From Methanobacteriota archaeon (GTDB taxonomy: Archaea > Thermoplasmatota > Poseidoniia > Poseidoniales > Poseidoniaceae), in the NCBI GenBank assembly GCA_002722695.1, contig PBMS01000029.1, positions 5,724-69,723 on the forward strand: 64,000 nt of DNA, in the 5' to 3' direction. Numbering within the stretch: position 1 is the first letter of the stretch; every line of letters begins with the position of its first letter. A program made the position numbers and the translations under genes. This document shows positions 4,657 to 49,500 of the stretch, piece by piece. The notes below the pieces were generated by a model. The model saw only the letters and a program-made list of their open reading frames with translations, ran no database searches and was not told the origin of the DNA.

Positions 4657-4704
4657 CTCCCTCAGCGAACATAGGTAGAAGAACAAACAGGAGGGCCCAA
4701 AGGC

Positions 4705-34154: not shown

Positions 34155-35129
34155 TTACACCCCGTCCTTCAACCACAATCTTCCGGCGAGGCTCTCCCAC
34201 TCAATGGATTGCGGGTGGCATGAATTGTGGTAGTTGGTGAATTCACCAAAGTACCACCTCCCATCGGCCCGGAACAAGTCCACTCGCGTGTAATCGATGT
34301 CTTCGGCCAAGCGTTCGACGATGTTGACAAGTTCGGTCAACCCATCCTTGCCGAGAAGGGACACGATTTCAGCGGGCGTGTTCTCTTCGCTCCATCGAGG
34401 GTTGGTTTGGTGAATGCGCTGCCCGCCGGGCGTGTAGATGGACTGGGAATGATTGGTCATGCGCCCTGTGTCGTATTGGATGAACCCCACCTTTCCGTGG
34501 AACACATGGACCTTCCAGTCGTTGGGCAATCGATTGTTGTCGGTGAGCAACTCTTCGATCATCACGCCGCGAGGCTGAATGTTCGCAGCTCCCCATTCAA
34601 GCGGAGCGGGGAAGTCCTGCCGTAAACACCATCGCAAGGATCGCTCGATCCGCCATTTTGGCCACGGTTTACCGTCTTGGTCCCGCCCGTTGCGAATGAC
34701 GCGGTATCGGTGCGCCCTGCGCGAAAACAAACGAAGTTTTCGAGAAACGTTGGCGAGCGGTACGGGCCCGTTGTCCATGATGAACAGAGCGTCTCCCGAC
34801 CAGTGGTTGGTTTTGATGACACATCGATCGGGCAGATTGTCCCAATCAATGCTCACGTCCTCCGACCAGTGGTGAAGTTCGGTGAGGTGGCAGACGTTTT
34901 TGGATTCGACCAGAGCCCGAGAGCGGTGTTTGTCCTCCATGAGCGGAAGGAGAGGATTGCGGTCTTCCACGCACCGTTTGAGAAGAAGTTGGCTGTAATG
35001 GCCCGCCTTGGATTCGTCGAGAGCGTGCCACGGGTGGACACCGCCTGGAAGTAACTCGGCCATCGATTGCGCGTGCGAGCGCGCCCGTTTTAGGCTTGGC
35101 ACCGTTCGTCCGGCGGACGGACAAATCAA
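34155..35129 (-). CDS. TupA-like ATP-grasp enzyme (PF14305 family; carboxylate-amine ligase associated with teichuronopeptide-type glycans)
   Basis: QLLLKRCVEDRNPLLPLMEDKHRSRALVE ... LPDRCVIKTNHWSGD matches the characteristic TupA-like N-terminal and KxxHGSG segments. The real start may be the internal Met near 35063. Confidence 0.65.
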   Translation of the reverse strand: MICPSAGRTVPSLKRARSHAQSMAELLPGGVHPWHALDESKAGHYSQLLLKRCVEDRNPLLPLMEDKHRSRALVESKNVCHLTELHHWSEDVSIDWDNLPDRCVIKTNHWSGDALFIMDNGPVPLANVSRKLRLFSRRAHRYRVIRNGRDQDGKPWPKWRIERSLRWCLRQDFPAPLEWGAANIQPRGVMIEELLTDNNRLPNDWKVHVFHGKVGFIQYDTGRMTNHSQSIYTPGGQRIHQTNPRWSEENTPAEIVSLLGKDGLTELVNIVERLAEDIDYTRVDLFRADGRWYFGEFTNYHNSCHPQSIEWESLAGRLWLKDGV

Positions 35130-35831: not shown

Positions 35832-37079
35832 CTATTCGGACGCCAATCGTTCCAAAATAGCGTCAACTGCGGTGGCCTTCTTGACACGTATCCATGGATT
35901 CACGGTCCGTGTTTCAATGTCCATTTTGAGCCGTTCAACACCTCCGCCGCTGATGTTGAGAAGAATGCAGTCGTCCTTGTCCACCTCACCGGATTCCACC
36001 GCTTGGAGAATACTTGCTGCTGCCACCGCTCCGGGCGTCATGATGTCGATGCCCTCGATGGTTTCGATCATGGTGCGCGCCTCCATGGCAGATTCACGCT
36101 CAACGATGTGGGTTTGGCCGTTCGAGGCTTTGAGAATGTCGTGCACAGCACCAGCTTGGCCGTACGCAGGGCCTTTGTTGAGCAGATAGTCGGAGTACAC
36201 CTTGACCTCTTCAGCGGGATAATCTCCGGGAACGAGGTGGTCGCGCCCCGCTTGCCAGGCGCTGTGTATGGGATGATGTTCGACGTTTTGTGAGACGTGT
36301 TGGCGAGGAGCGGGTCCTTCGAACAAACCGGCTTCGATCAACCGCTCAGCCATCTCGTGAATGCCGATGGGGCCCGGGCCGCCACCGATGCCTTGGAAGT
36401 AATGGTCGGGCAAACGCCCAATCGTGAAGGCTGCATCGATCATCAAGGTCCCAATGCCGTCTCGGCGAGCAACGTTGTGGACGCTGCCTTCCATCTGCCA
36501 GCCTGGAAGTTGAGCAGCGATGCTCTTGGCGACGGTCTTTGCGTCGTAATAGTCACCGTCCTCAATCACGACAAGGCGAACGCTTTCTGCGTTGTTTTCT
36601 GGGCGAGCCCAGATGCGTTTGGCGTGGTCCCTGCCCACCACGACGATGAGTGGGGTGCCGTCCAGCCCACAGAAGTGCGTGAAGGCTCGGGCGGTGTTGC
36701 CAGCGCTCGCGCAAATCAGCCCCTTGCAGCCGTGATCGTGCATGCGTTGGATGGTCGGAACGGCCTCCATGTCCTTGAAACTCCCTGTTGGACAAAGACC
36801 ACCTTTCTCAGGCCAATACCCATGGTAGGTGACCCAGAGGTTGCTCAAGCCCATCGCTTCACCGAGGGCCTCGGCCCGGTAGGTCACCGTACCGGCAACG
36901 TACTCGTTGGCCTTCGAGGTAGGAATCCATGAGAGGTACTTCCACACGCCTTTTGCGCTGTCTTGAAGCTGAAACGGTTCGCTGTAGACCGCACGCAGCA
37001 ACGCGTTGTCCGTGTAGTGGAGCGTGTAGGCGTCGTCGATGAGATCGCCTGTCTTCAGGCATTTGAGTTGATACTTCAT
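35832..37079 (-). CDS. Threonine synthase-like PLP enzyme (ThrC / cysteate synthase family)
   Basis: N-terminal MKYQLKCLKTGD. PLP-lysine motif TGSFKD. ASAGNTARAF. Start set at the internal Met with a good match to ThrC N-termini. Confidence 0.6.
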   Translation of the reverse strand: MKYQLKCLKTGDLIDDAYTLHYTDNALLRAVYSEPFQLQDSAKGVWKYLSWIPTSKANEYVAGTVTYRAEALGEAMGLSNLWVTYHGYWPEKGGLCPTGSFKDMEAVPTIQRMHDHGCKGLICASAGNTARAFTHFCGLDGTPLIVVVGRDHAKRIWARPENNAESVRLVVIEDGDYYDAKTVAKSIAAQLPGWQMEGSVHNVARRDGIGTLMIDAAFTIGRLPDHYFQGIGGGPGPIGIHEMAERLIEAGLFEGPAPRQHVSQNVEHHPIHSAWQAGRDHLVPGDYPAEEVKVYSDYLLNKGPAYGQAGAVHDILKASNGQTHIVERESAMEARTMIETIEGIDIMTPGAVAAASILQAVESGEVDKDDCILLNISGGGVERLKMDIETRTVNPWIRVKKATAVDAILERLASE

Positions 37080-37171
37080 CCTTTCACCATGCCCATGGTT
37101 GGCTACGCCCTCTCGTCTGGAAGCCGTGGTATAACAGTTCGGAACATAGTGAACACCGGGAGGCCGTTCTC

Positions 37172-38479
37172 TCACGACAGGGGGCGGCCAACAGCGAAAC
37201 ACTGCCAACCCAACTTTTGCAACCCGTCCAAGTCCAACACACGACGACCGTCATAGACTCGAGGTGCGTTCATCTGTTGGCCGAGCGCTTCCCAATCAAG
37301 GTCAACACACGCTTTGTGTGCTGTCACCAATACAGCGAGATCGTGATTTTTTGCCATGGTAAGGTCCTCGACCACCTCGATCGAGGCAGGAAAAGTTTCA
37401 GGATCAATATGAGGGTCGTAAACGCTGACGGCGATGCCACGTTGGTGCAAGGCTTCAGCCAACGGTTCAGCCGGTGTTTCCCGAGGGTCGCCCACTTCGG
37501 CTTTGTACGACCAACCAAGGAAGAGCACCTTCGTAGATTCCGCCGACAGCCCAGCCTTCCACAGGATGTCGACCAGGACCTGCGCGACATGGTTGGGCAT
37601 GGAGCGGTTGACCGCCCGAGCAGCGGTGATGAGCCCTGCAGGCACACCAACGTCGCTGGCTCGCTGAATCATGTAGTACGGGTCAACGGGAATGCAGTGG
37701 CCGCCCACCCCGACGCCAGGCGTGTAGCGATGGAAGTTCCACTTTGTTGCAGCAGCAGACAACACGTCCTCGACGTCCACGTCCATGGCGGGGAAAATAC
37801 GAGCCAGTTCATTGACGAGCGCGATGTTGATGTCGCGTTGCACGTTCTCAATGACCTTCGCTGCCTCAGCAACTTCAAGTTTTCCAACGTAGCGAACGTC
37901 CTCGCTCGTGAGTTGGCTGTAAAGTTGCACAAGGGCGTCGCCCACTTCAGGGTTGGAACAACCGACGACGCGAGCCACTGAACGCACGCCGTGGGCGGCG
38001 TCGCCGGGGTTGAATCGTTCGGGACAATACGCGATTTCAACATCGACGCCGATCTCTAGACCCAAATCCTCAATGAGAGGCAACCAAGTCTGAGCCGTTA
38101 CGCCGGGGTAGACCGTGGATTCGAGCACAACGATGGTGTTGGAACCTCGGGGTATTGACTCAAACACCGCTTTACCGGCCGCCTTGACATACGATAAATC
38201 AGGCTTGAGGTCGTGTGTTATGGGTGTTGGAACAGTCACAAGCACGATGTCGCATTGTGGAACGGCTTCCGCTGTGGAGGTGGTGATGTGCCAGCGTTCG
38301 CTGGCCGGCTGTGGGACGATGTCGTCGACATCAGGATCGCCCGTCGGGTTCTTTCCCGCTTTGACCGTGTCAACGGTGCGCTGCGAGACGTCAACGCCCC
38401 ACACGGTGAACCCGGCATCGTGAAACCCAATGGCCGTAGGCAAACCGACGTATCCAAGTCCGATGACGCCGATGGTCAT
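37172..38479 (-). CDS. Nucleotide-sugar 6-dehydrogenase (UDP-glucose/UDP-ManNAc dehydrogenase family)
   Basis: N-terminal Rossmann IGVIGLGYVGLPTA. Family-typical central and C-terminal domains. Confidence 0.8.
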   Translation of the reverse strand: MTIGVIGLGYVGLPTAIGFHDAGFTVWGVDVSQRTVDTVKAGKNPTGDPDVDDIVPQPASERWHITTSTAEAVPQCDIVLVTVPTPITHDLKPDLSYVKAAGKAVFESIPRGSNTIVVLESTVYPGVTAQTWLPLIEDLGLEIGVDVEIAYCPERFNPGDAAHGVRSVARVVGCSNPEVGDALVQLYSQLTSEDVRYVGKLEVAEAAKVIENVQRDINIALVNELARIFPAMDVDVEDVLSAAATKWNFHRYTPGVGVGGHCIPVDPYYMIQRASDVGVPAGLITAARAVNRSMPNHVAQVLVDILWKAGLSAESTKVLFLGWSYKAEVGDPRETPAEPLAEALHQRGIAVSVYDPHIDPETFPASIEVVEDLTMAKNHDLAVLVTAHKACVDLDWEALGQQMNAPRVYDGRRVLDLDGLQKLGWQCFAVGRPLS

Positions 38480-38653
38480 GTCGGCGTTTGAGTCCAGCGA
38501 AGCAAAGCGCTGACTCCATCCCATGTGCTATCCGAATCGGTTCATGTTATCAACTCAACCTATCAATGGACGGTGGAATATGCAAAACACCGAACGAATC
38601 CCCTCTCCGTTGAGGAACGGTCCGGTTTAGTCATATAGGAACGAAACGAGGCT

Positions 38654-39514
38654 ATGTCGATGGGGCAGAATGGTCCAACCACCCCCGTGCTCCGCCAAAT
38701 TGGGGTAAAATCAAATCCACTTCTTGCGCCCATAAACACGCTGAAAGAAGTCCGTTCGAATCGATTCCTGGTGCGGAATCTCATTCGACGTGATGTGCGA
38801 GGTCGCTATCGAAACGCTGCTCTCGGATACGCTTGGACGGTGATTGAACCTGCCTTGCTGGCCTCTGTTTACTGGTTTCTGTTCATCATGCTCAGTGGGA
38901 ATCCTGACGAAATGTACGCCGTTTGGGTGCTGTTGGGAGTGATTGTTTGGGGCTCTTTTTCAAAATCCTTGAACGCCGCAACGAATTCCCTGACCGGCAA
39001 TGTACGTACGATGCATCTTGTTTTCTTCCCGAGATCGATATTCCCCGTTTCTGGTGTTGGTGCTAACATCGTCGTCACAATGATGAGTTGTTTGATCATC
39101 CTCCCTCTTCTCTACATCTACGAATTACCAATCACAATCCACCTGGTCTGGATCCCCATCGGCGTGTTGTTGGCCGGGTTTATGGCGCTCGGTTTTGGCA
39201 TGATGATGGCGCCTCTGAATTGTGTTCAAAGGGATGTCCAGCATCTGATTCGTTTCATCACGCGTGCTGGCTTTTTCGTGTCCCCTGTGATGTGGACAGC
39301 AGAAATGGCAATGGAGCGCGGGGCTTGGGGCGAAGCTGCCCTATGGAACCCGATGGTACTACCAATCACGATGGTTCGTCATGCCCTCGAAGGGAAGAGC
39401 GTTGAATTACCGGATTCGATTGTAATTTCAAGTCTCGTGGTTTCGTTTCTGATCTACGTCGTCGGGACGATGATTTTCTCAAAATACGAGCGTGGGGCGG
39501 TGAAGTATCTATGA
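38654..39514 (+). CDS. ABC-2 type polysaccharide/teichoic-acid exporter permease (Wzm/TagG-like)
   Basis: Six predicted TM helices. The N-terminal RFLVRNLIRRDVRGRYRNAALGYAWTVIEP matches the ABC-2 signature. Confidence 0.7.
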   Translation: MSMGQNGPTTPVLRQIGVKSNPLLAPINTLKEVRSNRFLVRNLIRRDVRGRYRNAALGYAWTVIEPALLASVYWFLFIMLSGNPDEMYAVWVLLGVIVWGSFSKSLNAATNSLTGNVRTMHLVFFPRSIFPVSGVGANIVVTMMSCLIILPLLYIYELPITIHLVWIPIGVLLAGFMALGFGMMMAPLNCVQRDVQHLIRFITRAGFFVSPVMWTAEMAMERGAWGEAALWNPMVLPITMVRHALEGKSVELPDSIVISSLVVSFLIYVVGTMIFSKYERGAVKYL

Positions 39515-40230
39515 CAGAAACGAGCATCAGCCTTCAGGACATCGTCCTTCATTTCCCAAAGCAGCGGAATATTTTCGGGATTATCTCGGACTTTTTCCGT
39601 AAAAAAATACGGCGGTTCACTGCACTAAGCGGTGTAAATTTGCACATTAAGCAGGGCGAAGTGGTTGGAATAATCGGACGAAACGGTTCCGGAAAATCCA
39701 CACTCCTTAGAGTGATATCGGGTATTTACCCTCCTGACGAAGGCATGGTTCATGCTGCGGGAGACATCTCCTTGCTTGCAGGTCTAGGAACAGGGTTCTC
39801 TCCGCATCAAACGGGACGAGAAAACGCTTTGCTGTACGGCTCAATACTCGGCCACAGTGAAGAAGAAATGTTGTCCAAGCTGGATGAAATTATTGAATTT
39901 AGTGAACTGGGTTCGTTTATTGATGAGCCGCTGAGAACGTACTCAGCAGGAATGAAAGCCCGTTTGGGCCTGGCCGTCGCTTCTGCGATTAAACCGAACA
40001 TCCTTCTCATCGACGAGGTCTTGGGTGTGGGAGATCCAAATTTTCGAGAGAAATCCAAAAATAAAATTCTCGCAATGGTGAAGGGAGCCAGTACCGTTGT
40101 TATCGTATCCCACAGCTTTGGTTTGATGACCGACGTGTGCGATCGCGTCGTCCTTTTGGACCGAGGAAAAATCATTGCTGAGGGTGACCCGCAAACATCG
40201 ATCAAAGCGTATTACGATTTGGAGGAATGA
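39511..40230 (+). CDS. ABC transporter ATP-binding protein (Wzt/TagH-like)
   Basis: Walker A GRNGSGKST, ABC signature YSAGMKARL and Walker B ILLIDE. Confidence 0.8.
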   Translation: MTETSISLQDIVLHFPKQRNIFGIISDFFRKKIRRFTALSGVNLHIKQGEVVGIIGRNGSGKSTLLRVISGIYPPDEGMVHAAGDISLLAGLGTGFSPHQTGRENALLYGSILGHSEEEMLSKLDEIIEFSELGSFIDEPLRTYSAGMKARLGLAVASAIKPNILLIDEVLGVGDPNFREKSKNKILAMVKGASTVVIVSHSFGLMTDVCDRVVLLDRGKIIAEGDPQTSIKAYYDLEE

Positions 40231-41420
40231 ACGCAATGCCAACGCCGCGTAATGCAATGACGGCGAGAGAACGTCAACTGAGCGATGAACTAAACAGAAT
40301 CCGGTCAACATACTCTTTCAACCTCGGACTTCTGTTGACCGAGGCTCTCTTCAGAAAACCTTGGAAAATTCCTCTGCTCCCACTGTCGTTCGTCTTGTTC
40401 AACATCCGATACATCAAGCAAGGAAGAGTAAAAAAACTGCACATCGAAGAAAACTCAATCGAACTTGATGAAAACGTATTGATGCTCATCTCCACAACTG
40501 AAGAGGGCACGGCATCATTGGAACGGTGTGCGATTCTTGCAACAGAGTGGCTGAATGAACCTGAACGTAAGGTCGTGATCGTCAGTCCTCACGAAGACTA
40601 CCCGGGATTCTTACCGAAAAAAGCGGTGATGTATCCCATAAAAGATCCAAAGCTCTTGCACAAACAAAAACGGTCAGAGTGGAACGCATTGTGCGAGAAT
40701 CTGATCTCAAATATTCTTGAGTCGCATCGCCCGCAGCACGCAATTTTTGATGGGCCTTACCCCTATCGAGGAGTCTTAAACTCAATCAAGTCATTTCCGT
40801 CGGCCACATGGGTTTGGTTTCGACCCGAGGGGATCGACAACAGCACCCTCTTGACGCAATCCGAACATTTTACAAAAACGGAACGTTTCTCCATCTCAGA
40901 CAGACCCGGTGTGGCAATGCACGAATCGAGGAGATTACCTGTCAAAAAAGAATGGAAACGAATCTTACTCGACGCCCGAACGTATGGATCACACACGATG
41001 AAGCACGATGTGAAAATGCACAACATCTACAACGAGTTGGGGAACGACATCACTGTCGTTCACCCCTACGATGCAAATGCAATGGGTGGAGAAATCACAT
41101 CGGTGCTTTCTGAACAATCTCTTGAACACTTGATGGGGGCCGTCGTTCCTGCAAATCTAGAGATTGTTGCTGCCATGATGGCCGCAAATCTACCAACCCT
41201 GTGCATCCACACCGACGATACAAATCCCGCCACTTTAGCTGACCTGCGAAAGGGCTCGGCCCGTTGTCCGGTGATGTTTTGTCATGAACGGGACACGGTT
41301 CAGATTTTGCATTGTTTGACGACGCTGGTGAGAGACAACAACGCTATGAGAGAATGTTCCAACAGCGTGAAAAAAAGAAATTGGGTTTCTCAAATCATTC
41401 CGTCGCTTCATAAAGATTGA
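40227..41420 (+). CDS. GT-B-fold glycosyl/glycerophospho-transferase-like protein, paralog of 45208..46557
   Basis: It shares the N-terminal R..S..F.LG.LLT.A..RPW.I..LP motif with the 45208..46557 protein. Overall family is unclear. Confidence 0.35.
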   Translation: MNAMPTPRNAMTARERQLSDELNRIRSTYSFNLGLLLTEALFRKPWKIPLLPLSFVLFNIRYIKQGRVKKLHIEENSIELDENVLMLISTTEEGTASLERCAILATEWLNEPERKVVIVSPHEDYPGFLPKKAVMYPIKDPKLLHKQKRSEWNALCENLISNILESHRPQHAIFDGPYPYRGVLNSIKSFPSATWVWFRPEGIDNSTLLTQSEHFTKTERFSISDRPGVAMHESRRLPVKKEWKRILLDARTYGSHTMKHDVKMHNIYNELGNDITVVHPYDANAMGGEITSVLSEQSLEHLMGAVVPANLEIVAAMMAANLPTLCIHTDDTNPATLADLRKGSARCPVMFCHERDTVQILHCLTTLVRDNNAMRECSNSVKKRNWVSQIIPSLHKD

Positions 41421-44400
41421 CCGATGAAAGCAAACCGACGTCCCTTTCTGTCATCGGCAGTGCGAAATTGGAAAGTCGGTTTTTTGTGAAGGCCCTGTAC
41501 TTCTCCGGAATCATCTCAAGAGAAACGGGCAGGTAATGCTCAAGGAAGGTCCAATCCCTGTCAAGGTGGCGGTTTAAGTGTGGAAATTCATCAACCACCT
41601 TCAGTCCATCTTTTGATACCCCTCCATGTTTAATTGAATAGAGCGTACTTGCTGCTTGTTTCAATGGCTCTTTTTGCAAGAAGGTGGTTATTTCATTGCT
41701 CATTGCAAACGGCAACCCTTGCAAAGTGTTTTTTCTGAAACATTTCCAACAGGTTCCGCAAACCTGACCGGGACGGGAGGAACGAAGGCACGACTGTGCC
41801 CATCCGTCCCACCCCGAAGCCGTAACAATGTTGAGATTGACCACTTCCGAACAACCTGCAACCGGCTGGTACAGCGAAAGTCCGACGGCGTCAAACATTG
41901 GCGCATAGTGCTTCCAAAACCAAGATTGTTGGAAATCGCGATATTTGTACCCGTGAAAAAGGTATGAGTTTTCCAGCGGCATCCCTGTGCCTATGCTGTC
42001 CAATCCAAAATAATCAGCAAGGAGAATGGCCTGCACAGCGCATGCATAATCTGTTGAGAATCCTGCAGACTTTCCTTGATGTCGCCTTAATTCTTCATGG
42101 TTTGAAGGGATGCAATGAACGATTCTGCCAGTATCTGTTCTGATTTTATCAAAGAATCGAAAAGCGTTGGTGTGATCCAGCTGACCTGAAATGCCGGTTC
42201 GTTCATTGTAGAGCAGCACCGTATCCTCCGGCATAAGTGCCATAGCGGCAGCAGAATCTATCCCGCCAGAAAATGCCAGTCCAGGCCTCCATCCTGGTTC
42301 TCGTGTTGGGTTCCAATGTTCCATTGCTGACTTGTCCCAAGGCTCAACAAGAAGATGGTGGGCGAGTTGAAACAAGTCAGGGTGTGTATCATCAATGGAC
42401 CAGTCCATTGGCATTTGGAAGTACACTTCATGTTCTTTCCATTTCAAAACAAGCAAGTCTCCAGCGGTGGACCAGTGATCACCAACGATGTATCGATCTT
42501 GATCTCCTTTCGTGCCCGAACCACGACCGTCAAGATACTTCGCAAGCTCCTGTTGAGTCGATTTGCTCGTCCGAGTTAAATCGGGCAATTCATGTGACGG
42601 CATGAGTTCGGTTGACCATTTGCTTTCGTCTCGAAAACGAGCGCTGAGTTTGATTGCCTCGCTGTTGTTTTGGGAGGCCATCTGAACAACAACATAGTAT
42701 CCTATTTTCCCAGAGGATATCTTGGATTGAAGAGTCCCATCCAACTCAAATTCATTCCTGAGTTTCAGATGAACGTTTGAGGCAACTCGAGAGGAACCAT
42801 AGGGGCCAAGCACAAGGGACTTGATGGGACCGTTGAGCACAAGACGGCTGAGTTGGAGGGTTGAATCGCAAGCCAATGCATCCAATTCCCAACGTAGCAT
42901 GGGTGGAAATACGTCGTTTGAGATTCCTAATCGCCCAAACACATGGTCCAAACGCACGGAGTAATCCGTTGGATTTTCTCGCAGAACCGTTGCGAAACGC
43001 CGTGCGTCGGTTTCATCCACTATGATATCGACGCGTTCATCGAGTCCCGAGCGCCGGATCGATCGATTGACGCAATAAATCGTGTTGTTGTCTTGTTGAT
43101 CCTTGTTGACCGTGGACGTGTTGCTCTTGTGCTGCCTGTAGAGATACAGTGGTGTTTGCAGATGATACCCAGCGGTAATTTCAGACAGTTTCAGAAAAAA
43201 GTCATAATCCACAGCGTTGGTTATTGACTCGTCAAAGCCGCCTGAACGATTGAAATCACGCCTTCTAAACATTCGAGGATGATGAATCATCATGCCCTTC
43301 ATGAGGCGCTTTCGGCTGTATATCGCCCACGAATATGCCGGCCCCATCGAAGCTCCATGCTCATCAATAAGAAAAGAATCTCCGTACACAAATCCAACAT
43401 TCGAATTGTTCTGCAGAAACACCGAGAGCAATTTGTCTGCTGCCGATGGAAGAAGGACATCATCGCCGTCAAGCTGCAGTATGAACTCACCACGACCAGC
43501 ACGAATCGCTGCGTTTGATGCACTGGAGATTCCTTTGTTCTCCTGATGCAGGATGATGACTCGTTCGTTCCCTGAATACAATCGGTCGATCAACTCGCCC
43601 GTACCATCTGTCGATCCATCGTTGCATACAATTACTTCAAGGTCCGTCATGGTTTGGTTCAGAGCACTATCGACCGCCTCCTGAATAAAGTCCACACAGT
43701 TGTAAGCTGGGATGTATACGGTTAATCGAGGGACTTCATAGACTCGTCCTGGTTCAAATTTTCTGTACATTGCGGGACATTTTTCGACGAGTTGGTTTCG
43801 TGTGATCTCCTTCCCTGACTCACGGTCTGTCTCGTTTGATCCACCCGGTGGCTCTTGATGGAGGGCTTCAGCCCCCTCGACAGGTATGAACCACGCCCCG
43901 TGCCGATAAAGTCGATAGCCGTATTCCTGGTCCTCTGCTCCCCATGCAGTGAAGGTTTCGTCAAATCCACCGACGGATTCATGCAACTGGCGATCGATGC
44001 AAAGATTGCCACCACAGAGCCATCGAAACGCGTATTGAGCACTCTTTGCTTGCTCGGTTTCATGGTAGAATTTGTATCTCCAGTCTTCGCTCGGAGCTTC
44101 ATCGCCCACGGGTCCGCGTCCGGTGTCAACGCGTTGAGTGGGTAAATCGAGGACAGTTTCAATGTTCTCCAGAACGTCTTGAATCGAAAGGTCGTCGGTG
44201 TTTACATATCTTCGGCCGCCGATCAATACTGCCTTTTTTGACACATGCATGTACTTCATGAACGATTCAACCAGAGTTGGTTCGGGCAACATGTCGCAGT
44301 CAAGGATAATAATGCAGTCGTTGCTTGCTTCACGTACGCCCAAATTTCTGATTTCGCTCAATCGATAACCTAAATCTTCCTGAAAAACATGTTTGATGGG

Positions 44401-44685
44401 AAAAAAGTCCTTGAAAAGAGGAATGAGCGACTCCGGTGAATCGGATGAGCCGTCGTCCGCTATAACAATCTCAATCAGAGAAAGTGGATAACTGGAATGG
44501 GTGAGTGCTGCAATTGTCTTTCCCAGCTTCTCACGACGGTTGTAAACCGGTATAACAACCGAAACCGGTAGTGTGTATTCTGGCCTGCTTCGTGCAGGAA
44601 AGCGCAATTTGACCGCTCGTTGGAACAGAGTCCAATCATTTCCCTGCCCGAGGAGAGGAGGAAGTAATTCGTCGAATTCAAGCAT
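41395..44685 (-). CDS. Multidomain fusion of two tandem GT2 (GT-A) glycosyltransferase domains and a C-terminal PP-loop ATP pyrophosphatase domain (QueC/N-acetyl-sugar amidotransferase-like)
   Basis: GT2 #1 is VSVVIPVYNRREKL...DDGSSD...ILDCD. GT2 #2 is LTVYIPAYNCVDFI...NDGSTDGT...LDGDD. The C-terminal domain carries LAFSGGIDSAAA (SGGxDS) and a QueC-like zinc motif C-x9-CGTCWKC. Confidence 0.6.
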   Translation of the reverse strand: MLEFDELLPPLLGQGNDWTLFQRAVKLRFPARSRPEYTLPVSVVIPVYNRREKLGKTIAALTHSSYPLSLIEIVIADDGSSDSPESLIPLFKDFFPIKHVFQEDLGYRLSEIRNLGVREASNDCIIILDCDMLPEPTLVESFMKYMHVSKKAVLIGGRRYVNTDDLSIQDVLENIETVLDLPTQRVDTGRGPVGDEAPSEDWRYKFYHETEQAKSAQYAFRWLCGGNLCIDRQLHESVGGFDETFTAWGAEDQEYGYRLYRHGAWFIPVEGAEALHQEPPGGSNETDRESGKEITRNQLVEKCPAMYRKFEPGRVYEVPRLTVYIPAYNCVDFIQEAVDSALNQTMTDLEVIVCNDGSTDGTGELIDRLYSGNERVIILHQENKGISSASNAAIRAGRGEFILQLDGDDVLLPSAADKLLSVFLQNNSNVGFVYGDSFLIDEHGASMGPAYSWAIYSRKRLMKGMMIHHPRMFRRRDFNRSGGFDESITNAVDYDFFLKLSEITAGYHLQTPLYLYRQHKSNTSTVNKDQQDNNTIYCVNRSIRRSGLDERVDIIVDETDARRFATVLRENPTDYSVRLDHVFGRLGISNDVFPPMLRWELDALACDSTLQLSRLVLNGPIKSLVLGPYGSSRVASNVHLKLRNEFELDGTLQSKISSGKIGYYVVVQMASQNNSEAIKLSARFRDESKWSTELMPSHELPDLTRTSKSTQQELAKYLDGRGSGTKGDQDRYIVGDHWSTAGDLLVLKWKEHEVYFQMPMDWSIDDTHPDLFQLAHHLLVEPWDKSAMEHWNPTREPGWRPGLAFSGGIDSAAAMALMPEDTVLLYNERTGISGQLDHTNAFRFFDKIRTDTGRIVHCIPSNHEELRRHQGKSAGFSTDYACAVQAILLADYFGLDSIGTGMPLENSYLFHGYKYRDFQQSWFWKHYAPMFDAVGLSLYQPVAGCSEVVNLNIVTASGWDGWAQSCLRSSRPGQVCGTCWKCFRKNTLQGLPFAMSNEITTFLQKEPLKQAASTLYSIKHGGVSKDGLKVVDEFPHLNRHLDRDWTFLEHYLPVSLEMIPEKYRAFTKNRLSNFALPMTERDVGLLSSVNLYEATE

Positions 44686-45223
44686 GGTGGGGGGCTCCTA
44701 AATGCACGTCCAGCGCCGCAAATTTCCTTGGTTCCCCGTTGGATTTGAATTGCTCGCTGATGAAGATTTGAGCCTCGCAATTAAAATGTGCTTCCAAATC
44801 AATCATCAGGGAATGCTCAGCTTCCCGGTCGACATCGTCAACAAGGATGTGTTGTAACTTTGGTAAACGGGTGAGATGATTTAGTATTCCGCTGCGACCG
44901 ATTGAACCCGGCGGACCGTCGATGATGAGTAGGTGTGCTTCCATGGGGAGTTCATCAAAACACGATTCATCGTACCATCCCTCTTCTTTTCGGCTGATGG
45001 ACACAGAATTCGTCACGATCGGGGCAAAGACATAGGTCGACTTGGATTTGTGAAGCCAATCCTCGTTGTGTTCAACGGAATAGAGTTCAAATCGTTCGCT
45101 CAAACGCACGCTGCCGTCTCCACTACCGAATTCAATCACCACTGCTCCTGAGGGTATGCGTTCCTCAATCCATAAAAACGCCTCATTAGGAAGCATCCAT
45201 CCTGCGTTCATGTGTCCACCCAT
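44678..45223 (-). CDS. Putative class I SAM-dependent methyltransferase-like protein
   Basis: VIEFGSGDGS is a glycine-rich motif I-like segment and LLIIDG a motif II/IV-like segment. Weak. Confidence 0.3.
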   Translation of the reverse strand: MGGHMNAGWMLPNEAFLWIEERIPSGAVVIEFGSGDGSVRLSERFELYSVEHNEDWLHKSKSTYVFAPIVTNSVSISRKEEGWYDESCFDELPMEAHLLIIDGPPGSIGRSGILNHLTRLPKLQHILVDDVDREAEHSLMIDLEAHFNCEAQIFISEQFKSNGEPRKFAALDVHLGAPHHA

Positions 45224-46557
45224 TCTGAAAGCACCACCTGCAGAATGCTGGCACCGTTTTCCTGTTCAGAAACTGGGTTGCGTGGCCTTGACAGCAATTC
45301 AGCGACAGCGGTTTCTATTGCGGATTTGGTGCGCTCTCTAACCACCAACCCCCATCCTTCCGCTTCCGCTTGGCGACATCGAGCAAGCTGGTCGTCCATT
45401 CCAGTCGCCATGTTAGGGTAAAACACGGTAGGAATACCGAACTTCCTCATTTCGTGGTACGAGTTGTACCCTCCAGCTTGTACGCTGGCATCAAAGGCAT
45501 TGAAGTACACCGAATTAGGGTAATCTCGAAGCAAGACAACCCGATCAAGGTTCACAGAAAGACGTTCCCCCAGCATGCTTTCACCCAGCACCACGCTGAC
45601 ATTCTCATGAGCGAGAAGGGCGTCGATGGTAAGTCGCACCTCAGAACCAATTTCGTTGATTTGGCCAGCACCCAACTGAACGTACACGACTCTCTCTTCC
45701 AGCCCAAGTCCGAGGCGTTTTCTTGCATCGTTTCGTTGAATCAATTCTCCATGGTCAAGAAGCACCATTGGCGGAACTGATATTGTCTTTACACTGTGTC
45801 CAATTTCTGTTGGTTTCAGAGGAACACTGTCCTCGGGTCGCACGATTAGATCGAAGTGCTCAATTGAGTCTACGGGTATATTGCTCCCTTTCTTGAACAT
45901 CCCTCGTCGAAGCCACACTTTCTTGAGGGAGCGCTGCCCATTGAGCGCGTTTAACATACCACGATATGGAAAGGCTCCATCGTAAACAAACATCGTTGGG
46001 CGATGCTGGGTAAAAACGAGTGAAAGTTGCTCTTCCACCATCGCATTCCATTCGGATGTGGTCATGTTCTTGTGTTTTTTTCTACCCGCAAGGTGGTAGG
46101 TCGGAAATCCATCGTTGTACAACAGATGCAAGGTCGGCATTGTTGTAAAGAACACCACCTCAGATGATGGAAATCGCTTTTTCCACCTCTTGGCAAGAGC
46201 GTACATTCGAGTAAAATGGCCAAACCCGACGCCGTTTGTTGGAAACAGGACAATCGAATCCTTTCGAGGTTGATGCGCTTCTTCATGTTCCCCATCACCG
46301 TAGGGGATTGGGCGTTTACCAATTCGCTCCATGCCGATGCAAAACACAAGATAGGGAACCGTGAATGGAAGGAAAATAATCCTCCAAGGTCTCTGAACAG
46401 CGTTTGTCAGAAGAACACCCAGTCTGAATGGAGCAGAATTCCGAAGTCGCCTGTTCTCACGTTGGTAAAATCCATCCCGCTGAGTTGGCGTGTGAGATTC
46501 GTGTTCGTGGGCTTGATGATCTCCATCCATCACGTCATCAGAGTCGTAATCAATCAT
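45208..46557 (-). CDS. GT-B-fold glycosyltransferase-like protein (MurG/UGT-like G-x-G-H-x-x-R N-terminal motif)
   Basis: FPTNGVGFGHFTRMYALAKRW. The C-terminal YFNAFDASVQAGGYNSYHEMRKFGIPTVFYP resembles the GT28/GT1 C-domain. Confidence 0.45.
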   Translation of the reverse strand: MIDYDSDDVMDGDHQAHEHESHTPTQRDGFYQRENRRLRNSAPFRLGVLLTNAVQRPWRIIFLPFTVPYLVFCIGMERIGKRPIPYGDGEHEEAHQPRKDSIVLFPTNGVGFGHFTRMYALAKRWKKRFPSSEVVFFTTMPTLHLLYNDGFPTYHLAGRKKHKNMTTSEWNAMVEEQLSLVFTQHRPTMFVYDGAFPYRGMLNALNGQRSLKKVWLRRGMFKKGSNIPVDSIEHFDLIVRPEDSVPLKPTEIGHSVKTISVPPMVLLDHGELIQRNDARKRLGLGLEERVVYVQLGAGQINEIGSEVRLTIDALLAHENVSVVLGESMLGERLSVNLDRVVLLRDYPNSVYFNAFDASVQAGGYNSYHEMRKFGIPTVFYPNMATGMDDQLARCRQAEAEGWGLVVRERTKSAIETAVAELLSRPRNPVSEQENGASILQVVLSEWVDT

Positions 46558-49500
46558 TGAACCCCCTCCTCACCATTCCAAAATGAACCCAGGTATTTGT
46601 CGGCGTATTCAGTGTACCCGTTTCCTCCATGAGGCGTGGGGGTAAACTCTCCGAAAACCGCCCCTCTGCTGGTGGCGAACATGTCGATTCGCATGTACAT
46701 TCCTAGAGCGGCTCCTATGGTCCGCACGGATTCAATCATTTCTTGCCAACAATCTGGCCTCTGAATTGGATCTTGACCTTGATCCCTTTTTTCCATGATC
46801 TTCCCTGGCATCAACTTGAAATTTTCATCGTAATATTGATGTTCATTGAGGCTTTTGTTAACTTCAGATTTTCTCAAAGCCACATGCACCATCGCAATTT
46901 CTTCACCAAAGCAATAGAATTTGAAGTCCCGGGGTAAACCGTCGCTGAGTTGTTTAGGTTCTGGTTCAAGCAGTTCTTCAATCATGATTATTGGTTGATT
47001 TTGACGAATAAACTCATCCTCTGATAGTGCACGAACCAAATGCTCTCTTGTATACGCTTGGTGAGTCAAAATATCCATACCGTCCTTCATGCAATAGACA
47101 TTGTTTGAGTTCCACCCCTTTTCCGGCTTAATGACAAAGTTACGGGGCAATTGTGCCAGTTCAGGTATGTCTTGGCATTCCTTGCCCTCCCAATACAAGA
47201 CTGGGACCTTCAACCCCAAATCCTCCACGAAACTTCGCCCGGCAAGTTTCGGGGATAGTTTCTTTTGCCAAACTGGTTTTTTTGCCTTCCACCAATCGTG
47301 GTTTCGTTTCCTTATCATCTCTGAAAAAAGGGGCATGCCCGTTTCCCAAACATGATGTTTAGATTTCATCGCATCCGGAACCTCGAAAGGACGAATAGAC
47401 AACCTTCGAGGTAGGTAAGGTGAGGCGATTCCGGATTTGATTTTTTTGTGCCATAATCGGAACGAGCAGTGATGATTCAATCTGTGTCCGGACACAGAAC
47501 GCCAAGAAATGTGGAACGGCCCTCCACCTGTCAACGAACTGTTATGCAGCATCATGAACATTGAAGGTACGCTCATTCGTAATCGTCGCTCGTTTCCATA
47601 ATACGCCTCTATACGCTCAATGTACTCCGTATCTGCACCAACCCGAAGAGAATCAAAATATCCGATTTCGTCCACAACCTCCCTCCGTATGAGTAGGGAA
47701 ATACACGCCATTCTCAGAGCCCCAATTCCCCTGAATTCGACATCAGAGTTTTCGTCGATTCTGAAATAATCGTGAGTAATTCCTACCGCCTCAGGGTTTG
47801 AGCTCAGTGAATCAACCTGCATCTCAATACGTTGTGCATGACAGTAATCGTCGCTGTCCATGAAACCTATGAACGTCCCATTTGCTTGTGATATTCCGAA
47901 ATTTTTTGCGAGATATGTCCCCCCGTTTTCATTCATTTGAAACACGCGAATTCGGTCATCGGTTTGCTTCAATGTTTGAAGATACGTAAAATTATCATCA
48001 GGTGAACAGTCATCGACAATCAACAGCTCAACATTTCGGTATGTTTGATTGAGAATCGAAGCTATCGCTGAATCCAACAATGGATCTCGTTTGTACGTAG
48101 TCATGATAATGGACACAAGACGGTCATCGTCCACGAACTTGCTCACATCTGTGGAAAGATATCGCGGCGTTATGGCGTTGACTGGTGATGTGGATGTCAC
48201 CGGAGCGAGGCCATGTAATTCCAGCATGTTGTTGATGTGCTTAATTTGCATTTGGGCTTGTCCTGCATTTTTTTCGATTTGAGAGGCAGTGATGTACACA
48301 TCGTTGGATTCTGGCCAGCGGACCAAGCATTTTGATATGGTATTGCGTGCTGTTTGATGATTTCCCAGCCAGGAGTTCACCAAGGCAAAATAGAGTTGAC
48401 TTCGCTGATTGTTTGGGTGATGGTTTAAGCAGGTTTGAACAATTTCCAATGCCAAATCAAAGTCCTTCAAAACGCTCAAAACAAAATTTAATCGGGCAAA
48501 TTGATGATTTAGGTTATTTGGAAATTCTTTAGTTGCCTTCGTAATTTCAAACGAATACTTTTCTTCGGACCATATTTTAATTCCACATTTCAGCCTTCGC
48601 TGCAATGCCGATTGATGATTTTTGTTGATTTCCAACACCCGCTCAAACATGCGGATTGCGTCTTCCAACTTCCCCATGGACTCGAGAGCTATGCCTTTAC
48701 GCATCAAAAAAGAGATGCTCTCCGAATGTGAGGCTAAAGCGCCATCAAGTATGTCAAGCGCACTCGCCGCATCCCCTTCCTCCAGCATTCTCGCTGCCAT
48801 TAAATCGGTTTCAAGCAAAGTGCCTTCGATGAGTCCCAGGAGGTGTTCCGCTTCCTCCTTTTGACCTAATTCACATAACTTTAGATACGAATTACGTATT
48901 GTTGCCTTTGCGTCGACACCAAGCTCAACCAACCGTTTGCTTGCAAGTAAGATGTCCTGGACTGAACCATGGTTGATTGCAGCGTTAGCAAATCTCCGCA
49001 GGTGATACAATTTTACCTCGCCCAATTCATTGAGTCGATGGTAAGCGTCCAAAGCAAGCTGAGGCGTTTTCGTTCGATACCCAATTTCAGTCAAAATCTC
49101 CAACATCTGTAGGTCGTTTGGATCTTCCTGAAGGACCACAGAGGCAATTTGTGCTGATTCATCAAATCGTTTTGCGTGTTTCAGCCGCTTTGCCAGCGAA
49201 CGTTTTTTGGAAAGTTCACCGTCGATTTTTCCAAGATAATTCACCCATAAATTATGAGCCATTTCTATCTGCCCGAGGGATTCACACACCTGTCGCGCAA
49301 ACATCAACGTCGACTCGTTCACAACCTCTCGAGACATTAGCGAGTTGAGGAGTTCAATTCCTCCCTCAACATCTCCAGATTCAAAATGTTCTTTTGCTTG
49401 GACAAAGATAGGAAAGGGGATGTCCATGTCCCAGTTCGATTGGAGAAAAAAAGCCCTGCATGATTGCTCATGCCAAAATGTCTCAAACATCCTCGAGAGC

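What the first reader, a model, noticed from the sequence alone, without database searches (positions are those of the whole stretch)
41395..44685. Novel GT2-GT2-PP-loop (QueC/amidotransferase-like) tri-domain enzyme
A single 1096-aa ORF carries two complete GT-A (GT2) glycosyltransferase domains, each with a DxD context. These are followed by a ~450-aa domain with the PP-loop SGGIDS motif and a QueC-like zinc motif (C-x9-C-G-T-C-W-K-C). PP-loop enzymes of the QueC and N-acetyl-sugar amidotransferase (PseA/WbuX-like) families adenylate a carboxylate or acetamido group and form amides or amidines. Fusing one to two glycosyltransferases implies coupled sugar polymerisation and ATP-dependent amidation (or acetamidino formation) of the sugar. 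I do not recognise this architecture as described.
Basis: partly seen in the sequence, partly recalled or inferred. Interest (0 to 1): 0.85.

Follow-up and report, generated by a model that had tools for sequence, protein, structure and literature searches.

The report
Archaeal chondroitin-type polymerase fused to QueC-like ATPase
A marine archaeon (Marine Group II) encodes one 1096-residue protein that joins a chondroitin-polymerase-like sugar-chain builder to an uncharacterised ATP-using domain shaped like QueC; this domain most likely converts the acid groups of the growing sugar chain into amides, a chemistry not yet described for this enzyme class.

Summary
ORF 41395..44685 (-) is intact and encodes 1096 aa. 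Three independent public assemblies carry it with one amino-acid difference.

- **N-terminal part (aa 5-549).** This is more specific than "two GT2 domains". It aligns end to end with E. coli K4 chondroitin polymerase K4CP/KfoC (E 3e-128, 41.5% identity). Both DXD motifs are in place.
- **C-terminal part (aa 735-1096).** Pfam covers only its second half, as DUF6395. No PP-loop or QueC profile reaches significance.
  - SxGxDS and four Cys are invariant in 35 homologues.
  - The QueC substrate motifs are absent.
- **Middle part (aa 550-734).** Unassigned.
- **Host and context.** The window is archaeal (PolD, primase) and most related loci are Poseidoniales. The gene lies in a low-GC, ABC-transporter-type polysaccharide island. 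That island also holds an NDP-sugar dehydrogenase, an epimerase, GT-B transferases and a heparosan-synthase-like GT2 fused to a TupA-type ATP-grasp.
- **Distribution.** The domain recurs fused to one to three GT2 domains or to GT-B domains, or encoded next to them, including in Firmicutes.

Best reading: a glycosaminoglycan-type polymerase coupled to an acyl-adenylate-forming amidoligase that acts on uronate carboxylates. This is inferred, not shown. I rate it a new variant of known kinds, interest about 0.6.

The parts
41395..44685 (-). Whole 1096-aa ORF (stop codon included): K4CP-like bifunctional polymerase, then an unassigned segment, then a QueC-like PP-loop domain
   Evidence: The identical ORF, with one amino-acid difference, is present in three independent assemblies.
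43756..44673 (-). GT-A domain 1 (aa 5-310), equivalent to the K4CP A1 (GalNAc-transferase) domain
   Evidence: It aligns with PDB 2z86/2z87 and is 39% identical over this half. Pfam finds Glycos_transf_2 plus Glyco_transf_7C.
44293..44301 (-). DXD motif 1, DCD (aa 129-131)
   Evidence: It aligns with the DCD of K4CP. Coordinates were checked.
43039..43755 (-). GT-A domain 2 (aa 311-549), equivalent to the K4CP A2 (GlcA-transferase) domain
   Evidence: It is 45% identical to K4CP over this half. Pfam finds Glycos_transf_2 at aa 322-446.
43462..43470 (-). DXD motif 2, DGD (aa 406-408, followed by D409)
   Evidence: It aligns with the DSD(D) of K4CP. Coordinates were checked.
42484..43038 (-). 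Unassigned 185-aa segment (aa 550-734) between the polymerase and the PP-loop domain
   Evidence: Pfam and NCBIfam give no match at permissive thresholds. It is found only in the closest relatives (L001-L003, 27-29% identity) and is absent from the 912-aa forms.
41398..42483 (-). QueC-like PP-loop ATP pyrophosphatase domain (aa 735-1096). Its C-terminal half is Pfam DUF6395.
42253..42270 (-). PP-loop SGGIDS (aa 806-811)
   Evidence: S, G, D and S are invariant in 35 of 35 homologues. In the model the motif lies in the loop after the first core strand and before a helix.
41740..41790 (-). Cys4 motif C-x9-C-x2-C-x2-C (aa 966-982), a QueC-type presumed Zn site
   Evidence: All four Cys are invariant. 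In the 35-sequence alignment 20 members have x9 spacing and 11 have x8. The Firmicute and standalone homologues in the related loci have the canonical QueC spacing x8. The QueC hallmark motif is defined in PMC13329287.
46554..49850 (-). First gene of the same four-gene operon: TPR repeats, GT2 and TupA-like ATP-grasp (1098 aa)
   Evidence: Pfam domains are. The GT2 part best matches the Pasteurella heparosan synthase B GT2 domain (E 8e-39). The architecture parallels C. jejuni Cj1438, a GT2 plus ATP-grasp amidoligase acting on GlcA (PMC11800379).
45208..46557 (-). GT-B (GT1/GT28-like) glycosyltransferase with an N-terminal helical extension (449 aa). It is the most constant partner of the QueC-like domain.
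44678..45223 (-). 181-aa ORF whose stop overlaps the start of the finding's ORF. It has a methyltransferase-like glycine-rich motif.
   Evidence: The sequence contains VIEFGSGDGS. No family match was found. A homologue is present in 20 of 59 loci.
40227..41420 (+). 397-aa paralogue (24-26% identity) of the GT-B protein, convergent with the finding's ORF
   Evidence: (alignment).
38654..40230 (+). Wzm-like ABC-2 permease and Wzt-like ATPase (polysaccharide exporter)
   Evidence: Pfam ABC2_membrane and ABC_tran; NCBIfam Wzm and Wzt models.
37172..38524 (-). NDP-sugar 6-dehydrogenase (source of uronic acid)
   Evidence: TIGR03026 scores 386 bits against a cut-off of 190. A homologue is present in 20 of 27 related loci that have at least 5 kb on both sides.
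50054..51013 (+). NAD-dependent sugar epimerase (GalE/TviC-like)
   Evidence: A homologue is present in 17 of 27 well-flanked loci.

Best explanation
The ORF encodes a cytoplasmic, bifunctional glycosaminoglycan-type polymerase of the K4CP/KfoC class. Two GT-A active sites alternately add a hexosamine and a uronic acid from UDP-sugars.

This polymerase is fused to a QueC-like PP-loop ATP pyrophosphatase domain, probably stabilised by a Cys4 zinc site. I propose the following reaction for that domain:
1. It uses ATP to adenylate the C6 carboxylate of uronic acid residues that the polymerase has just installed, releasing PPi.
2. Ammonia, or another amine, attacks the acyl-adenylate. This gives a uronamide and AMP.

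The modified chain is then exported by the neighbouring Wzm/Wzt ABC transporter to the surface of a Marine Group II archaeon.

Shown here:
- the domain identities, motif conservation, fold and gene context;
- the recurrence of the fusion.

Inferred, not shown:
- ATP use and zinc binding;
- the substrate (a uronate carboxylate) and the nucleophile;
- whether the domain acts on the chain end, on internal residues or on the UDP-sugar.
For: **N-terminal half**
- Aa 5-549 are homologous end to end to chondroitin polymerase K4CP (E 3e-128, 432 bits, 41.5% identity over 542 columns). DCD and DGD sit at the K4CP DXD positions.

**C-terminal domain**
- SxGxDS and Cys4 are invariant.
- QueC-family enzymes adenylate a carboxylate and form an amide. 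QueC converts CDG to ADG with NH3, and Cap9 and QatC link CDG to a protein N-terminus (PMC13329287).

**Fusions tie the domain to glycan assembly**
- It is fused to one, two or three GT2 domains, or to a GT-B domain.
- In L001 and L005 it is a separate gene directly after a K4CP-like gene.

**Context points to uronic acids**
- An NDP-sugar dehydrogenase is present in 20 of 27 well-flanked loci.
- The bacterial Halobacillus cluster L048 has a dehydrogenase. None of the ten neighbouring ORFs scanned there is an ATP-grasp.

**Precedents**
- Cj1438 fuses a GT2 to an ATP-dependent amidoligase that amidates GlcA on the growing chain before the next transfer (PMC11800379).
- The AsnB-like PP-loop enzymes WbpS and WbqG convert uronic acids to uronamides (PMC7468200).
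Against: - There are no biochemical data for any member of the family, and no paper mentions DUF6395.
- No sequence profile links the domain significantly to PP-loop families.
- About half of the domain (an N-terminal three-stranded sheet and a C-terminal helical bundle) has no counterpart in QueC. Only about 165 of 362 residues align.
- The QueC substrate motifs YxQxHxxE, VPxRN and YPDC are absent, so the substrate cannot be read from homology.
- The same operon already encodes a TupA-like ATP-grasp fused to a uronosyl-transferase-like GT2. That enzyme could be the uronate amidoligase, leaving a different job for the PP-loop domain.
- The dehydrogenase resembles UDP-N-acetylhexosamine dehydrogenases more than UDP-glucose dehydrogenase, so the polymer may not be chondroitin itself.
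- No ammonia-generating glutaminase is present in the cluster.
Confidence: 0.5

Rival explanations
1. The PP-loop domain is an N-acetyl-sugar amidotransferase, as in PseA, WbpG, WbuX and LpNASAT. It would activate the acetamido oxygen of GalNAc or GlcNAc residues and convert it to an acetamidino group.
For: - It has a PP-loop fold and sits in a polysaccharide cluster whose polymerase is expected to add N-acetylhexosamines.
- Acetamidino sugars occur in archaeal N-glycans (my own knowledge of Methanococcus AglXYZ).
Against: - There is no TIGR03573 or other NCBIfam match.
- The Cys4 motif has the QueC pattern and position.
- No HisH/HisF-like glutaminase or cyclase partner is found among the neighbours scanned.
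- The strongest non-GT co-occurrence is with an NDP-sugar dehydrogenase.
Confidence: 0.1
2. Uronate amidation is done by the neighbouring TupA-like ATP-grasp domains. The QueC-like domain would have another ATP-dependent role. Possible roles are adenylylating or capping the non-reducing end to set chain length, activating a non-sugar carboxylate (an amino acid or a small acid) for attachment to the chain, or attaching the chain to an acceptor amine on a protein or lipid, as Cap9 and QatC do with protein N-termini.
For: - Two TupA-like ATP-grasp ORFs are present. One is fused to a heparosan-synthase-like GT2 in the same operon.
- This domain type is a proven GlcA amidoligase in C. jejuni.
- The closest structural relatives, Cap9 and QatC, ligate a carboxylate to a protein amine.
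- ABC-transporter pathways often use terminal capping (my own knowledge of the WbdD systems).
Against: - Most related loci have the QueC-like domain but no ATP-grasp. The ATP-grasp was found in 2 of 27 well-flanked loci. None of the ten neighbouring ORFs scanned in Halobacillus L048 is an ATP-grasp. The domain's role therefore cannot depend on an ATP-grasp.
- Wzt here is short (239 aa) and has no carbohydrate-binding module that would read a terminal cap.
Confidence: 0.2
3. The four cysteines hold an Fe-S cluster, and the domain is a sulfur transferase of the TtuA, NcsA or LarE type that makes a thiocarboxylate or thio-sugar.
Against: - The Cys pattern C-x8/9-C-x2-C-x2-C and its position after the core sheet match the QueC zinc site, not the three-Cys [4Fe-4S] site of TtuA or LarE (PMC13329287).
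- QueC and Cap9 score higher.
- No sulfur-carrier or cysteine desulfurase gene is in the cluster.
Confidence: 0.04

Closest known systems
E. coli K4 chondroitin polymerase K4CP/KfoC (PDB 2z86/2z87), a Pasteurella-type (class II) GAG synthase
   Same: Homologous over both GT-A domains (aa 5-549; E 3e-128; 41.5% identity), with both DXD motifs conserved. Like the K4 capsule locus, this cluster has a sugar dehydrogenase, a 4-epimerase-like gene and an ABC exporter.
   Different: The host is archaeal. The protein carries about 550 extra C-terminal residues, including the PP-loop domain. Donor specificities are untested, and the local dehydrogenase looks more like a UDP-HexNAc dehydrogenase.
QueC (7-cyano-7-deazaguanine synthase, PF06508; PDB 3bl5)
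   Different: There is no PF06508 match. The QueC substrate motifs YxQxHxxE, VPxRN and YPDC are absent in all 35 family members. The domain has extra N-terminal sheet and C-terminal helical modules, no queD or queE in its context, and is fused to glycosyltransferases.
Cap9 (type IV CBASS) and QatC (QatABCD), QueC-family ligases
   Different: Those enzymes act in anti-phage defence on a protein N-terminus using 7-deazaguanine. No defence genes or partner proteins are present here, and sequence identity is only 13-17%.
Campylobacter jejuni Cj1438 (GT2 + linker domain + TupA-like ATP-grasp amidoligase)
   Same: It follows the same logic: a polymerising GT2 fused through a domain of unknown function to an ATP-dependent enzyme that amidates the GlcA C6 carboxylate of the growing, ABC-exported chain (PMC11800379). 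A true architectural counterpart (GT2 + TupA ATP-grasp) lies three genes upstream in the same operon.
   Different: The amidoligase here has a PP-loop fold (acyl-adenylate, AMP + PPi) rather than an ATP-grasp fold (acyl-phosphate, ADP + Pi). The polymerase has two GT-A domains, and the amine is unknown.
WbpS/WbqG (AsnB-like uronamide-forming amidotransferases)
   Same: These are PP-loop-type synthetase domains that convert uronic acids of surface glycans to uronamides (PMC7468200).
N-acetyl sugar amidotransferases (PseA, WbpG, WbuX; LpNASAT 8wex)
   Same: They belong to the PP-loop superfamily and act in surface-polysaccharide biosynthesis.

Membership tests
PP-loop ATP pyrophosphatase superfamily (adenine nucleotide alpha-hydrolase fold) | SGGxDS phosphate-binding loop after the first core strand | tested here: met
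   SGGIDS lies at aa 806-811. S, G, D and S are invariant in 35 of 35 homologues. In the model it is the loop between strand 66-70 and helix 75-83.
PP-loop ATP pyrophosphatase superfamily (adenine nucleotide alpha-hydrolase fold) | Rossmann-like alpha/beta core superimposable on solved members | tested here: met
PP-loop ATP pyrophosphatase superfamily (adenine nucleotide alpha-hydrolase fold) | Significant sequence-profile match to a member family | tested here: not met
   Pfam and NCBIfam give nothing even at permissive thresholds. The family profile against PDB gives only E 0.009-0.05 to argininosuccinate synthase and NAD synthetase, around the P-loop.
PP-loop ATP pyrophosphatase superfamily (adenine nucleotide alpha-hydrolase fold) | ATP cleaved to AMP + PPi with an adenylated intermediate | not testable with these tools
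   This needs an enzyme assay.
QueC family (PF06508) | Match to the PF06508 model | tested here: not met
   No hit at E<=10.
QueC family (PF06508) | C(x)8CxxCxxC zinc motif near the C-terminus of the core | tested here: met
   The window has C-x9-C-x2-C-x2-C. In the 35-sequence alignment 11 members have x8 and 20 have x9, and all four Cys are invariant. The motif definition comes from PMC13329287. Zinc binding itself was not tested.
QueC family (PF06508) | Substrate-pocket motifs YxQxHxxE, VPxRN and YPDC | tested here: not met
   Absent from the window protein and from all 35 aligned homologues.
QueC family (PF06508) | 7-deazaguanine pathway context (queD, queE) | tested here: not met
   The neighbours are glycosyltransferases, an ABC exporter and sugar-nucleotide enzymes.
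K4CP/KfoC-type bifunctional GAG polymerase (GT2) | Two tandem GT-A domains homologous to K4CP A1 and A2 over their full length | tested here: met
   Aa 5-549 align with chain residues 59-603 of 2z87 (E 3e-128). Identity is 39% over the A1 half and 45% over the A2 half.
K4CP/KfoC-type bifunctional GAG polymerase (GT2) | A DXD motif in each domain at the K4CP positions | tested here: met
   DCD aligns with DCD, and DGDD aligns with DSDD.
K4CP/KfoC-type bifunctional GAG polymerase (GT2) | Alternating transfer of GalNAc and GlcA to form chondroitin | not testable with these tools
   Donor specificity cannot be read from the sequence. The local dehydrogenase scores best against UDP-HexNAc dehydrogenase models.
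N-acetyl sugar amidotransferase (TIGR03573; PseA, WbpG, WbuX) | Match to TIGR03573 | tested here: not met
   The NCBIfam scan of aa 735-1096 at E<=1 gave only two insignificant, unrelated hits.
N-acetyl sugar amidotransferase (TIGR03573; PseA, WbpG, WbuX) | Closest structural relative is a NASAT | tested here: not met
Cj1438-type GT-amidoligase fusion | Polymerising GT2 fused to an ATP-dependent carboxylate-amine ligase domain | tested here: inconclusive
   The fusion of a polymerase with a carboxylate-activating fold is present. The ligase activity is inferred.
Cj1438-type GT-amidoligase fusion | The ligase domain is a TupA-like ATP-grasp (PF14305) | tested here: not met
   There is no PF14305 in this ORF. 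It is present in the neighbouring ORF 46554..49850 and in ORF 34155..35129.
AsnB/WbpS-type amidotransferase | N-terminal Ntn glutaminase domain plus an asparagine-synthetase-type synthetase domain | tested here: not met

The most novel reading that the evidence does not exclude
Marine Group II archaea may build a chondroitin-like polymer whose uronate carboxylates are amide-linked to an amino-sulfonate. The donor would be L-cysteate, supplied by the cysteate synthase gene that is translationally coupled to the cluster's sugar dehydrogenase. The coupling enzyme would be a previously unrecognised, glycan-specific branch of the QueC fold. This would be a non-sulfotransferase route to a 'sulfated-GAG-like' surface in very abundant ocean archaea, and the first PP-loop amidoligase that works on a growing polysaccharide.
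Probability: 0.07. Interest if true: 0.85.

Novelty: new variant of a known kind. Interest (0 to 1): 0.6.

Why it matters
- **A function for DUF6395.** If the proposal holds, DUF6395 proteins would gain a function. The family has about 340-860 clusters at 50% identity in 1.84 billion representatives.
- **A second way to amidate uronic acids on a chain.** Uronic acids would be amidated on a nascent polysaccharide through an acyl-adenylate on a QueC scaffold. The known route uses an acyl-phosphate on an ATP-grasp.
- **Another use of the QueC fold.** The fold is already known from nucleobase biosynthesis and from protein deazaguanylation in phage defence. Glycan tailoring would be a third use.
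- **Glycosaminoglycan-type polymers in uncultured archaea.** Marine Group II archaea are among the most abundant planktonic archaea. These results suggest that they make glycosaminoglycan-type surface polymers with a close homologue of bacterial chondroitin polymerase, encoded in a low-GC variable island typical of surface and phage-receptor diversity.
- **A route to experiments.** Homologues exist in culturable Firmicutes (Halobacillus, Paenibacillus, Lentibacillus, Cohnella), so the hypothesis can be tested directly.
- **Possible use.** A polymerase fused to an amidating domain could help in making charge-modified chondroitin or heparosan analogues.

Tried and rejected
**Searches that found nothing useful**
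- Pfam and NCBIfam scans of the C-terminal half at E<=10 and E<=1 returned only DUF6395.
- phmmer of the C-terminal half against PDB gave only E>1 hits.
- The family profile against PDB gave marginal P-loop hits only.
- A single-protein scan of genome contigs found no relative.
- The exact-sequence look-up of the 1096-aa protein failed. The public copies differ by F101S.
- ARAGORN and Rfam found no RNA genes in the window.
- Literature searches for 'DUF6395' and for taurine- or amide-linked uronic acids found nothing. The search on archaeal chondroitin synthase and methanochondroitin found no paper on archaeal chondroitin-synthase homologues among those listed.
- Pfam and NCBIfam gave nothing for the aa 550-734 segment. 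The 181-aa ORF gave nothing in either library. The 397-aa paralogue gave nothing at E<=0.01, nor in Pfam at E<=5.

**Ideas rejected**
- A bacterial O-antigen context: the window encodes archaeal PolD DP2 and the primase large subunit.
- A frameshift chimera.
- A canonical QueC function: the substrate motifs are absent.

**Not done**
- I did not model the full-length protein or the middle segment. I used the two structure jobs on the QueC-like domain and on its most constant partner.
- I ran no further search on the K4CP-like half.

Full report
**1. The observation**

- ORF 41395..44685 lies on the minus strand, starts with ATG and encodes 1096 aa.
- Pfam reports two Glycos_transf_2 stretches. 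The first (aa about 41-280) ends with a Glyco_transf_7C-like tail. The second is aa 319-523.
- Pfam also reports one more family, DUF6395 (PF19932), at aa 928-1084 with E 1.6e-23.
  - DCD at aa 129-131 and DGDD at aa 406-409;
  - SGGIDS at aa 806-811;
  - C966-x9-C976-G-T-C979-W-K-C982.
- The ORF is not an assembly or frameshift artefact.
  - A 99.6-kb ENA contig, a Logan contig and a Tara Oceans scaffold carry the same 3291-nt ORF in the same gene order.
  - They differ from the window by 3-10 nucleotides, mostly synonymous, and by one residue, F101S. That single difference explains why the exact-sequence look-up failed.

**2. The host is an archaeon**

- The window encodes the archaeal DNA polymerase D large subunit (5326..9429), the eukaryotic/archaeal primase large subunit (2624..3838) and an HVO_0163-type HTH protein.
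- The identical neighbour protein P0121 is named 'Euryarchaeota archaeon' in NCBI.
- Of the 59 related loci recovered from species-representative genomes, most are Candidatus Poseidoniales (Marine Group II) MAGs.
- The ORF sits in a low-GC stretch: 0.48 across 38.6-50 kb, against 0.58 elsewhere.

**3. The N-terminal half is a chondroitin-polymerase homologue**

- Aa 5-549 align without large gaps to residues 59-603 of the crystallised E. coli K4 chondroitin polymerase (PDB 2z86/2z87). The match has E 3e-128 and 432 bits.
- Identity is 41.5% over 542 columns, 39% in the A1-like half and 45% in the A2-like half.
- The two DXD motifs align with the K4CP DCD and DSD(D). From my own knowledge of the K4CP structure papers, these belong to the GalNAc-transferase and GlcA-transferase sites respectively.
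- This part is therefore a class II (Pasteurella/K4-type) bifunctional glycosaminoglycan polymerase, not just two generic GT2 domains.
- Donor specificity cannot be read from the sequence.

**4. The C-terminal domain**

- *Sequence profiles.*
  - None assigns a fold. Pfam at E<=10 gives only DUF6395, and NCBIfam gives nothing.
  - phmmer against PDB gives nothing.
  - A family profile against PDB gives marginal hits around the P-loop to argininosuccinate synthase (E 0.009) and NAD synthetase (E 0.036).
- *Homologues.*
  - A search found 125 homologues.
  - In a 35-sequence alignment (32-69% identity), S806, G808, D810, S811, C966, C976, C979, K981, C982 and K985 are invariant (add 734 to the alignment numbering).
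- *Structure.*
  - AlphaFold2 on this alignment gave a confident model (mean pLDDT 94.7, pTM 0.93).
  - Foldseek ranks the QueC-family protein QatC first (E 2.4e-5), followed by TilS, GMP synthase and TtuA.
- *The cysteine motif.*
  - A recent survey of the QueC family names SGGxDS and C(x)8CxxCxxC as the two QueC hallmarks (PMC13329287).
  - The window protein has x9 spacing. In the alignment 20 members have x9 and 11 have x8.
  - The Firmicute and standalone archaeal homologues in the related loci have the canonical x8.
- *Differences from QueC.*
  - The three QueC substrate-pocket motifs from that paper (YxQxHxxE, VPxRN, YPDC) are absent from all 35 sequences.
  - Only about 165 of 362 residues superpose on QueC.
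  - The family adds an N-terminal three-stranded sheet plus helix, and a C-terminal helical module of about 110 residues.
- *Conclusion.* The domain is a distinct, uncharacterised branch of the PP-loop superfamily. It is closest to QueC in fold and metal motif but has a different substrate site.
- *The middle segment.* Aa 550-734 match no family and occur only in the nearest relatives.

**5. Recurrence and fusion partners**

- A full HMMER scan of 1.84 billion cluster representatives finds 856 proteins at E<=1e-3 and 341 at E<=1e-30, so the family is small.
- The architectures seen are:
  - GT2-GT2-domain proteins of 912-919 aa and about 1100 aa;
  - three GT2 domains plus the domain (L011, L020);
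  - one GT2 plus the domain (L007, L012);
  - the domain followed by a GT-B domain (Lentibacillus L042), and a GT28_C fusion (P0109);
  - standalone proteins of 340-500 aa.
- In L005 (the MG-II chromosome CM001443.1) and L001, a K4CP-like gene and the domain's gene are separate and adjacent. Fusion and fission have therefore both occurred naturally, which supports a functional link.
- Several loci carry two paralogues of the domain.

**6. Gene context**

- The ORF is the last gene of a four-gene minus-strand operon in which stop and start codons overlap:
  1. TPR, GT2 and TupA-like ATP-grasp (46554..49850). Its GT2 part best matches the GT2 domain of Pasteurella heparosan synthase B, E 8e-39.
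  3. A 181-aa ORF with a methyltransferase-like VIEFGSGDGS motif and no family match.
  4. The finding's ORF.
- The flanking genes are:
  - a 397-aa paralogue of the GT-B protein;
  - a Wzm/Wzt ABC exporter;
  - an NDP-sugar dehydrogenase (TIGR03026, 386 bits), which scores best against the UDP-ManNAc and TviB-type models;
  - a GalE/TviC-like epimerase;
  - further GT4 and GT2 genes.
- Across the 59 loci, a GT-B homologue lies within 4.5 kb of the domain in 51.
- Among the 27 loci with at least 5 kb on both sides, the counts are:

| Neighbouring gene | Loci with it (of 27) |
|---|---|
| GT-B homologue | 25 |
| NDP-sugar dehydrogenase | 20 |
| Wzt | 18 |
| Epimerase | 17 |
| TupA-like ATP-grasp | 2 |

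- The Halobacillus litoralis cluster (L048) contains a dehydrogenase, Wzm, Wzt, two GT4 genes, a methyltransferase-GT28 fusion, the DUF6395 protein, another GT4 and a priming transferase. None of the ten neighbouring ORFs scanned there is an ATP-grasp.

**7. Mechanism proposed**

- The steps I infer are these:
  1. The polymerase alternately adds a hexosamine and a uronic acid in the cytoplasm.
  2. The QueC-like domain adenylates the uronate C6 carboxylate, giving AMP and PPi.
  3. Ammonia or another amine displaces AMP to give the amide.
  4. Wzm/Wzt export the chain.
- The inference rests on four points:
  - QueC-family chemistry is carboxylate adenylation followed by amide formation. QueC does this with NH3, and Cap9 and QatC with a protein N-terminus.
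  - The domain is constantly associated with glycosyltransferases and frequently with a sugar 6-dehydrogenase.
  - In Cj1438, a GT2 is fused to an ATP-dependent amidoligase, and GlcA must be amidated on the chain before the next transfer (PMC11800379).
  - The AsnB-like PP-loop enzymes WbpS and WbqG make uronamides (PMC7468200).
- Not shown: ATP use, zinc binding, the substrate, the nucleophile and the timing.
- The main complication is the ATP-grasp in the same operon, which may be the uronate amidoligase here. However, most related clusters lack an ATP-grasp, so the PP-loop domain must have a role of its own.
- I give the proposal a confidence of 0.5. The rivals are:

| Rival explanation | Confidence |
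|---|---|
| Acetamidino formation | 0.1 |
| Another ATP-dependent ligation or capping role | 0.2 |
| Sulfur transfer | 0.04 |

**8. Novelty and score**

- All the component kinds are known: the K4CP-type polymerase, the PP-loop/QueC fold and the GT-amidoligase fusion.
- Pfam already lists part of the domain as a DUF, and the fused architecture is present, unstudied, in public metagenomes.
- What is new:
  - the recognition that DUF6395 proteins are QueC-like PP-loop enzymes dedicated to glycan clusters;
  - the fusion of this domain to a genuine chondroitin-polymerase homologue;
  - the archaeal setting.
- No paper mentions the family.
- I rate it a new variant of a known kind, with interest 0.6.

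Noticed in passing
window 35832..37208 (-): This ORF is a cysteate synthase: TIGR03844 scores 410 bits against a cut-off of 325. Its start overlaps the end of the NDP-sugar dehydrogenase gene (37172..38524), so the two look translationally coupled. A homologue lies near the dehydrogenase in 9 MGII loci. To my knowledge MGII archaea are not known to make coenzyme M, so the use of cysteate here is unexplained. It could be an amine or sulfonate donor for the glycan, or simply conserved flank synteny, because BolA and glutaredoxin genes follow it.
   Followed up: partly
window 46554..49850 (-): This 1098-aa protein has TPR repeats, a GT2 domain that best matches the GT2 domain of Pasteurella heparosan synthase B (E 8e-39), and a TupA-like ATP-grasp. 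Its architecture parallels the C. jejuni GlcA amidoligase Cj1438. The operon therefore holds two GAG-synthase-like transferases, each fused to a different ATP-dependent ligase fold.
   Followed up: partly
window 34155..35129 (-): A second, free-standing TupA-like ATP-grasp ORF of 324 aa (E 1.8e-21) lies outside the low-GC island. It is 84% identical to a homologue in locus L011.
   Followed up: no
window 44678..45223 (-): A 181-aa ORF is translationally coupled to the finding's ORF. It has a SAM-methyltransferase-like VIEFGSGDGS motif and an IIDGPP motif but matches no family. In Halobacillus (L048 7568..9907) a methyltransferase domain is fused to the GT28-like protein next to the DUF6395 gene. 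This may point to a recurring methylation or chain-capping step.
   Followed up: partly
window 45208..46557 (-) and 40227..41420 (+): These are two paralogous proteins (24-26% identity) with no significant family match. The first folds as a GT1/GT28-like GT-B glycosyltransferase with an N-terminal helical extension of about 80 aa. In other metagenomic proteins this family is fused to a TupA ATP-grasp (741-757 aa forms).
   Followed up: yes
window 38000..51000: This is a low-GC island (0.46-0.52, against 0.57-0.60 in the flanks) that coincides with the polysaccharide genes. Its genes are much less conserved between MGII genomes (often only about 30-65% identity) than the flanking dehydrogenase and cysteate synthase (about 60-93%). 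This is what one expects of a variable surface-glycan island.
   Followed up: partly
L005 (about nt 4446-5852), L029-L032, L036, L050 (minus strand), L001: Several MGII clusters carry a second paralogue of the QueC-like domain with the canonical C-x8-C-x2-C-x2-C spacing. This suggests more than one modification or substrate per cluster. The window has only one copy.
   Followed up: no
window 16180..18876 (+): An 898-aa protein with thrombospondin type 3 repeats (E 2.3e-22), probably a secreted or surface protein. The public annotation of the same contig also lists a Pilin_N protein just beyond the glycan genes (L060 1553-2056).
   Followed up: no
L008, L013 (labelled Gammaproteobacteria bacterium NP1472) and L020 (labelled Enterobacteriaceae): These MAG contigs are labelled bacterial, yet they carry gene sets 46-85% identical to the MGII cluster. 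They are probably mis-binned archaeal contigs rather than evidence of transfer.
   Followed up: no
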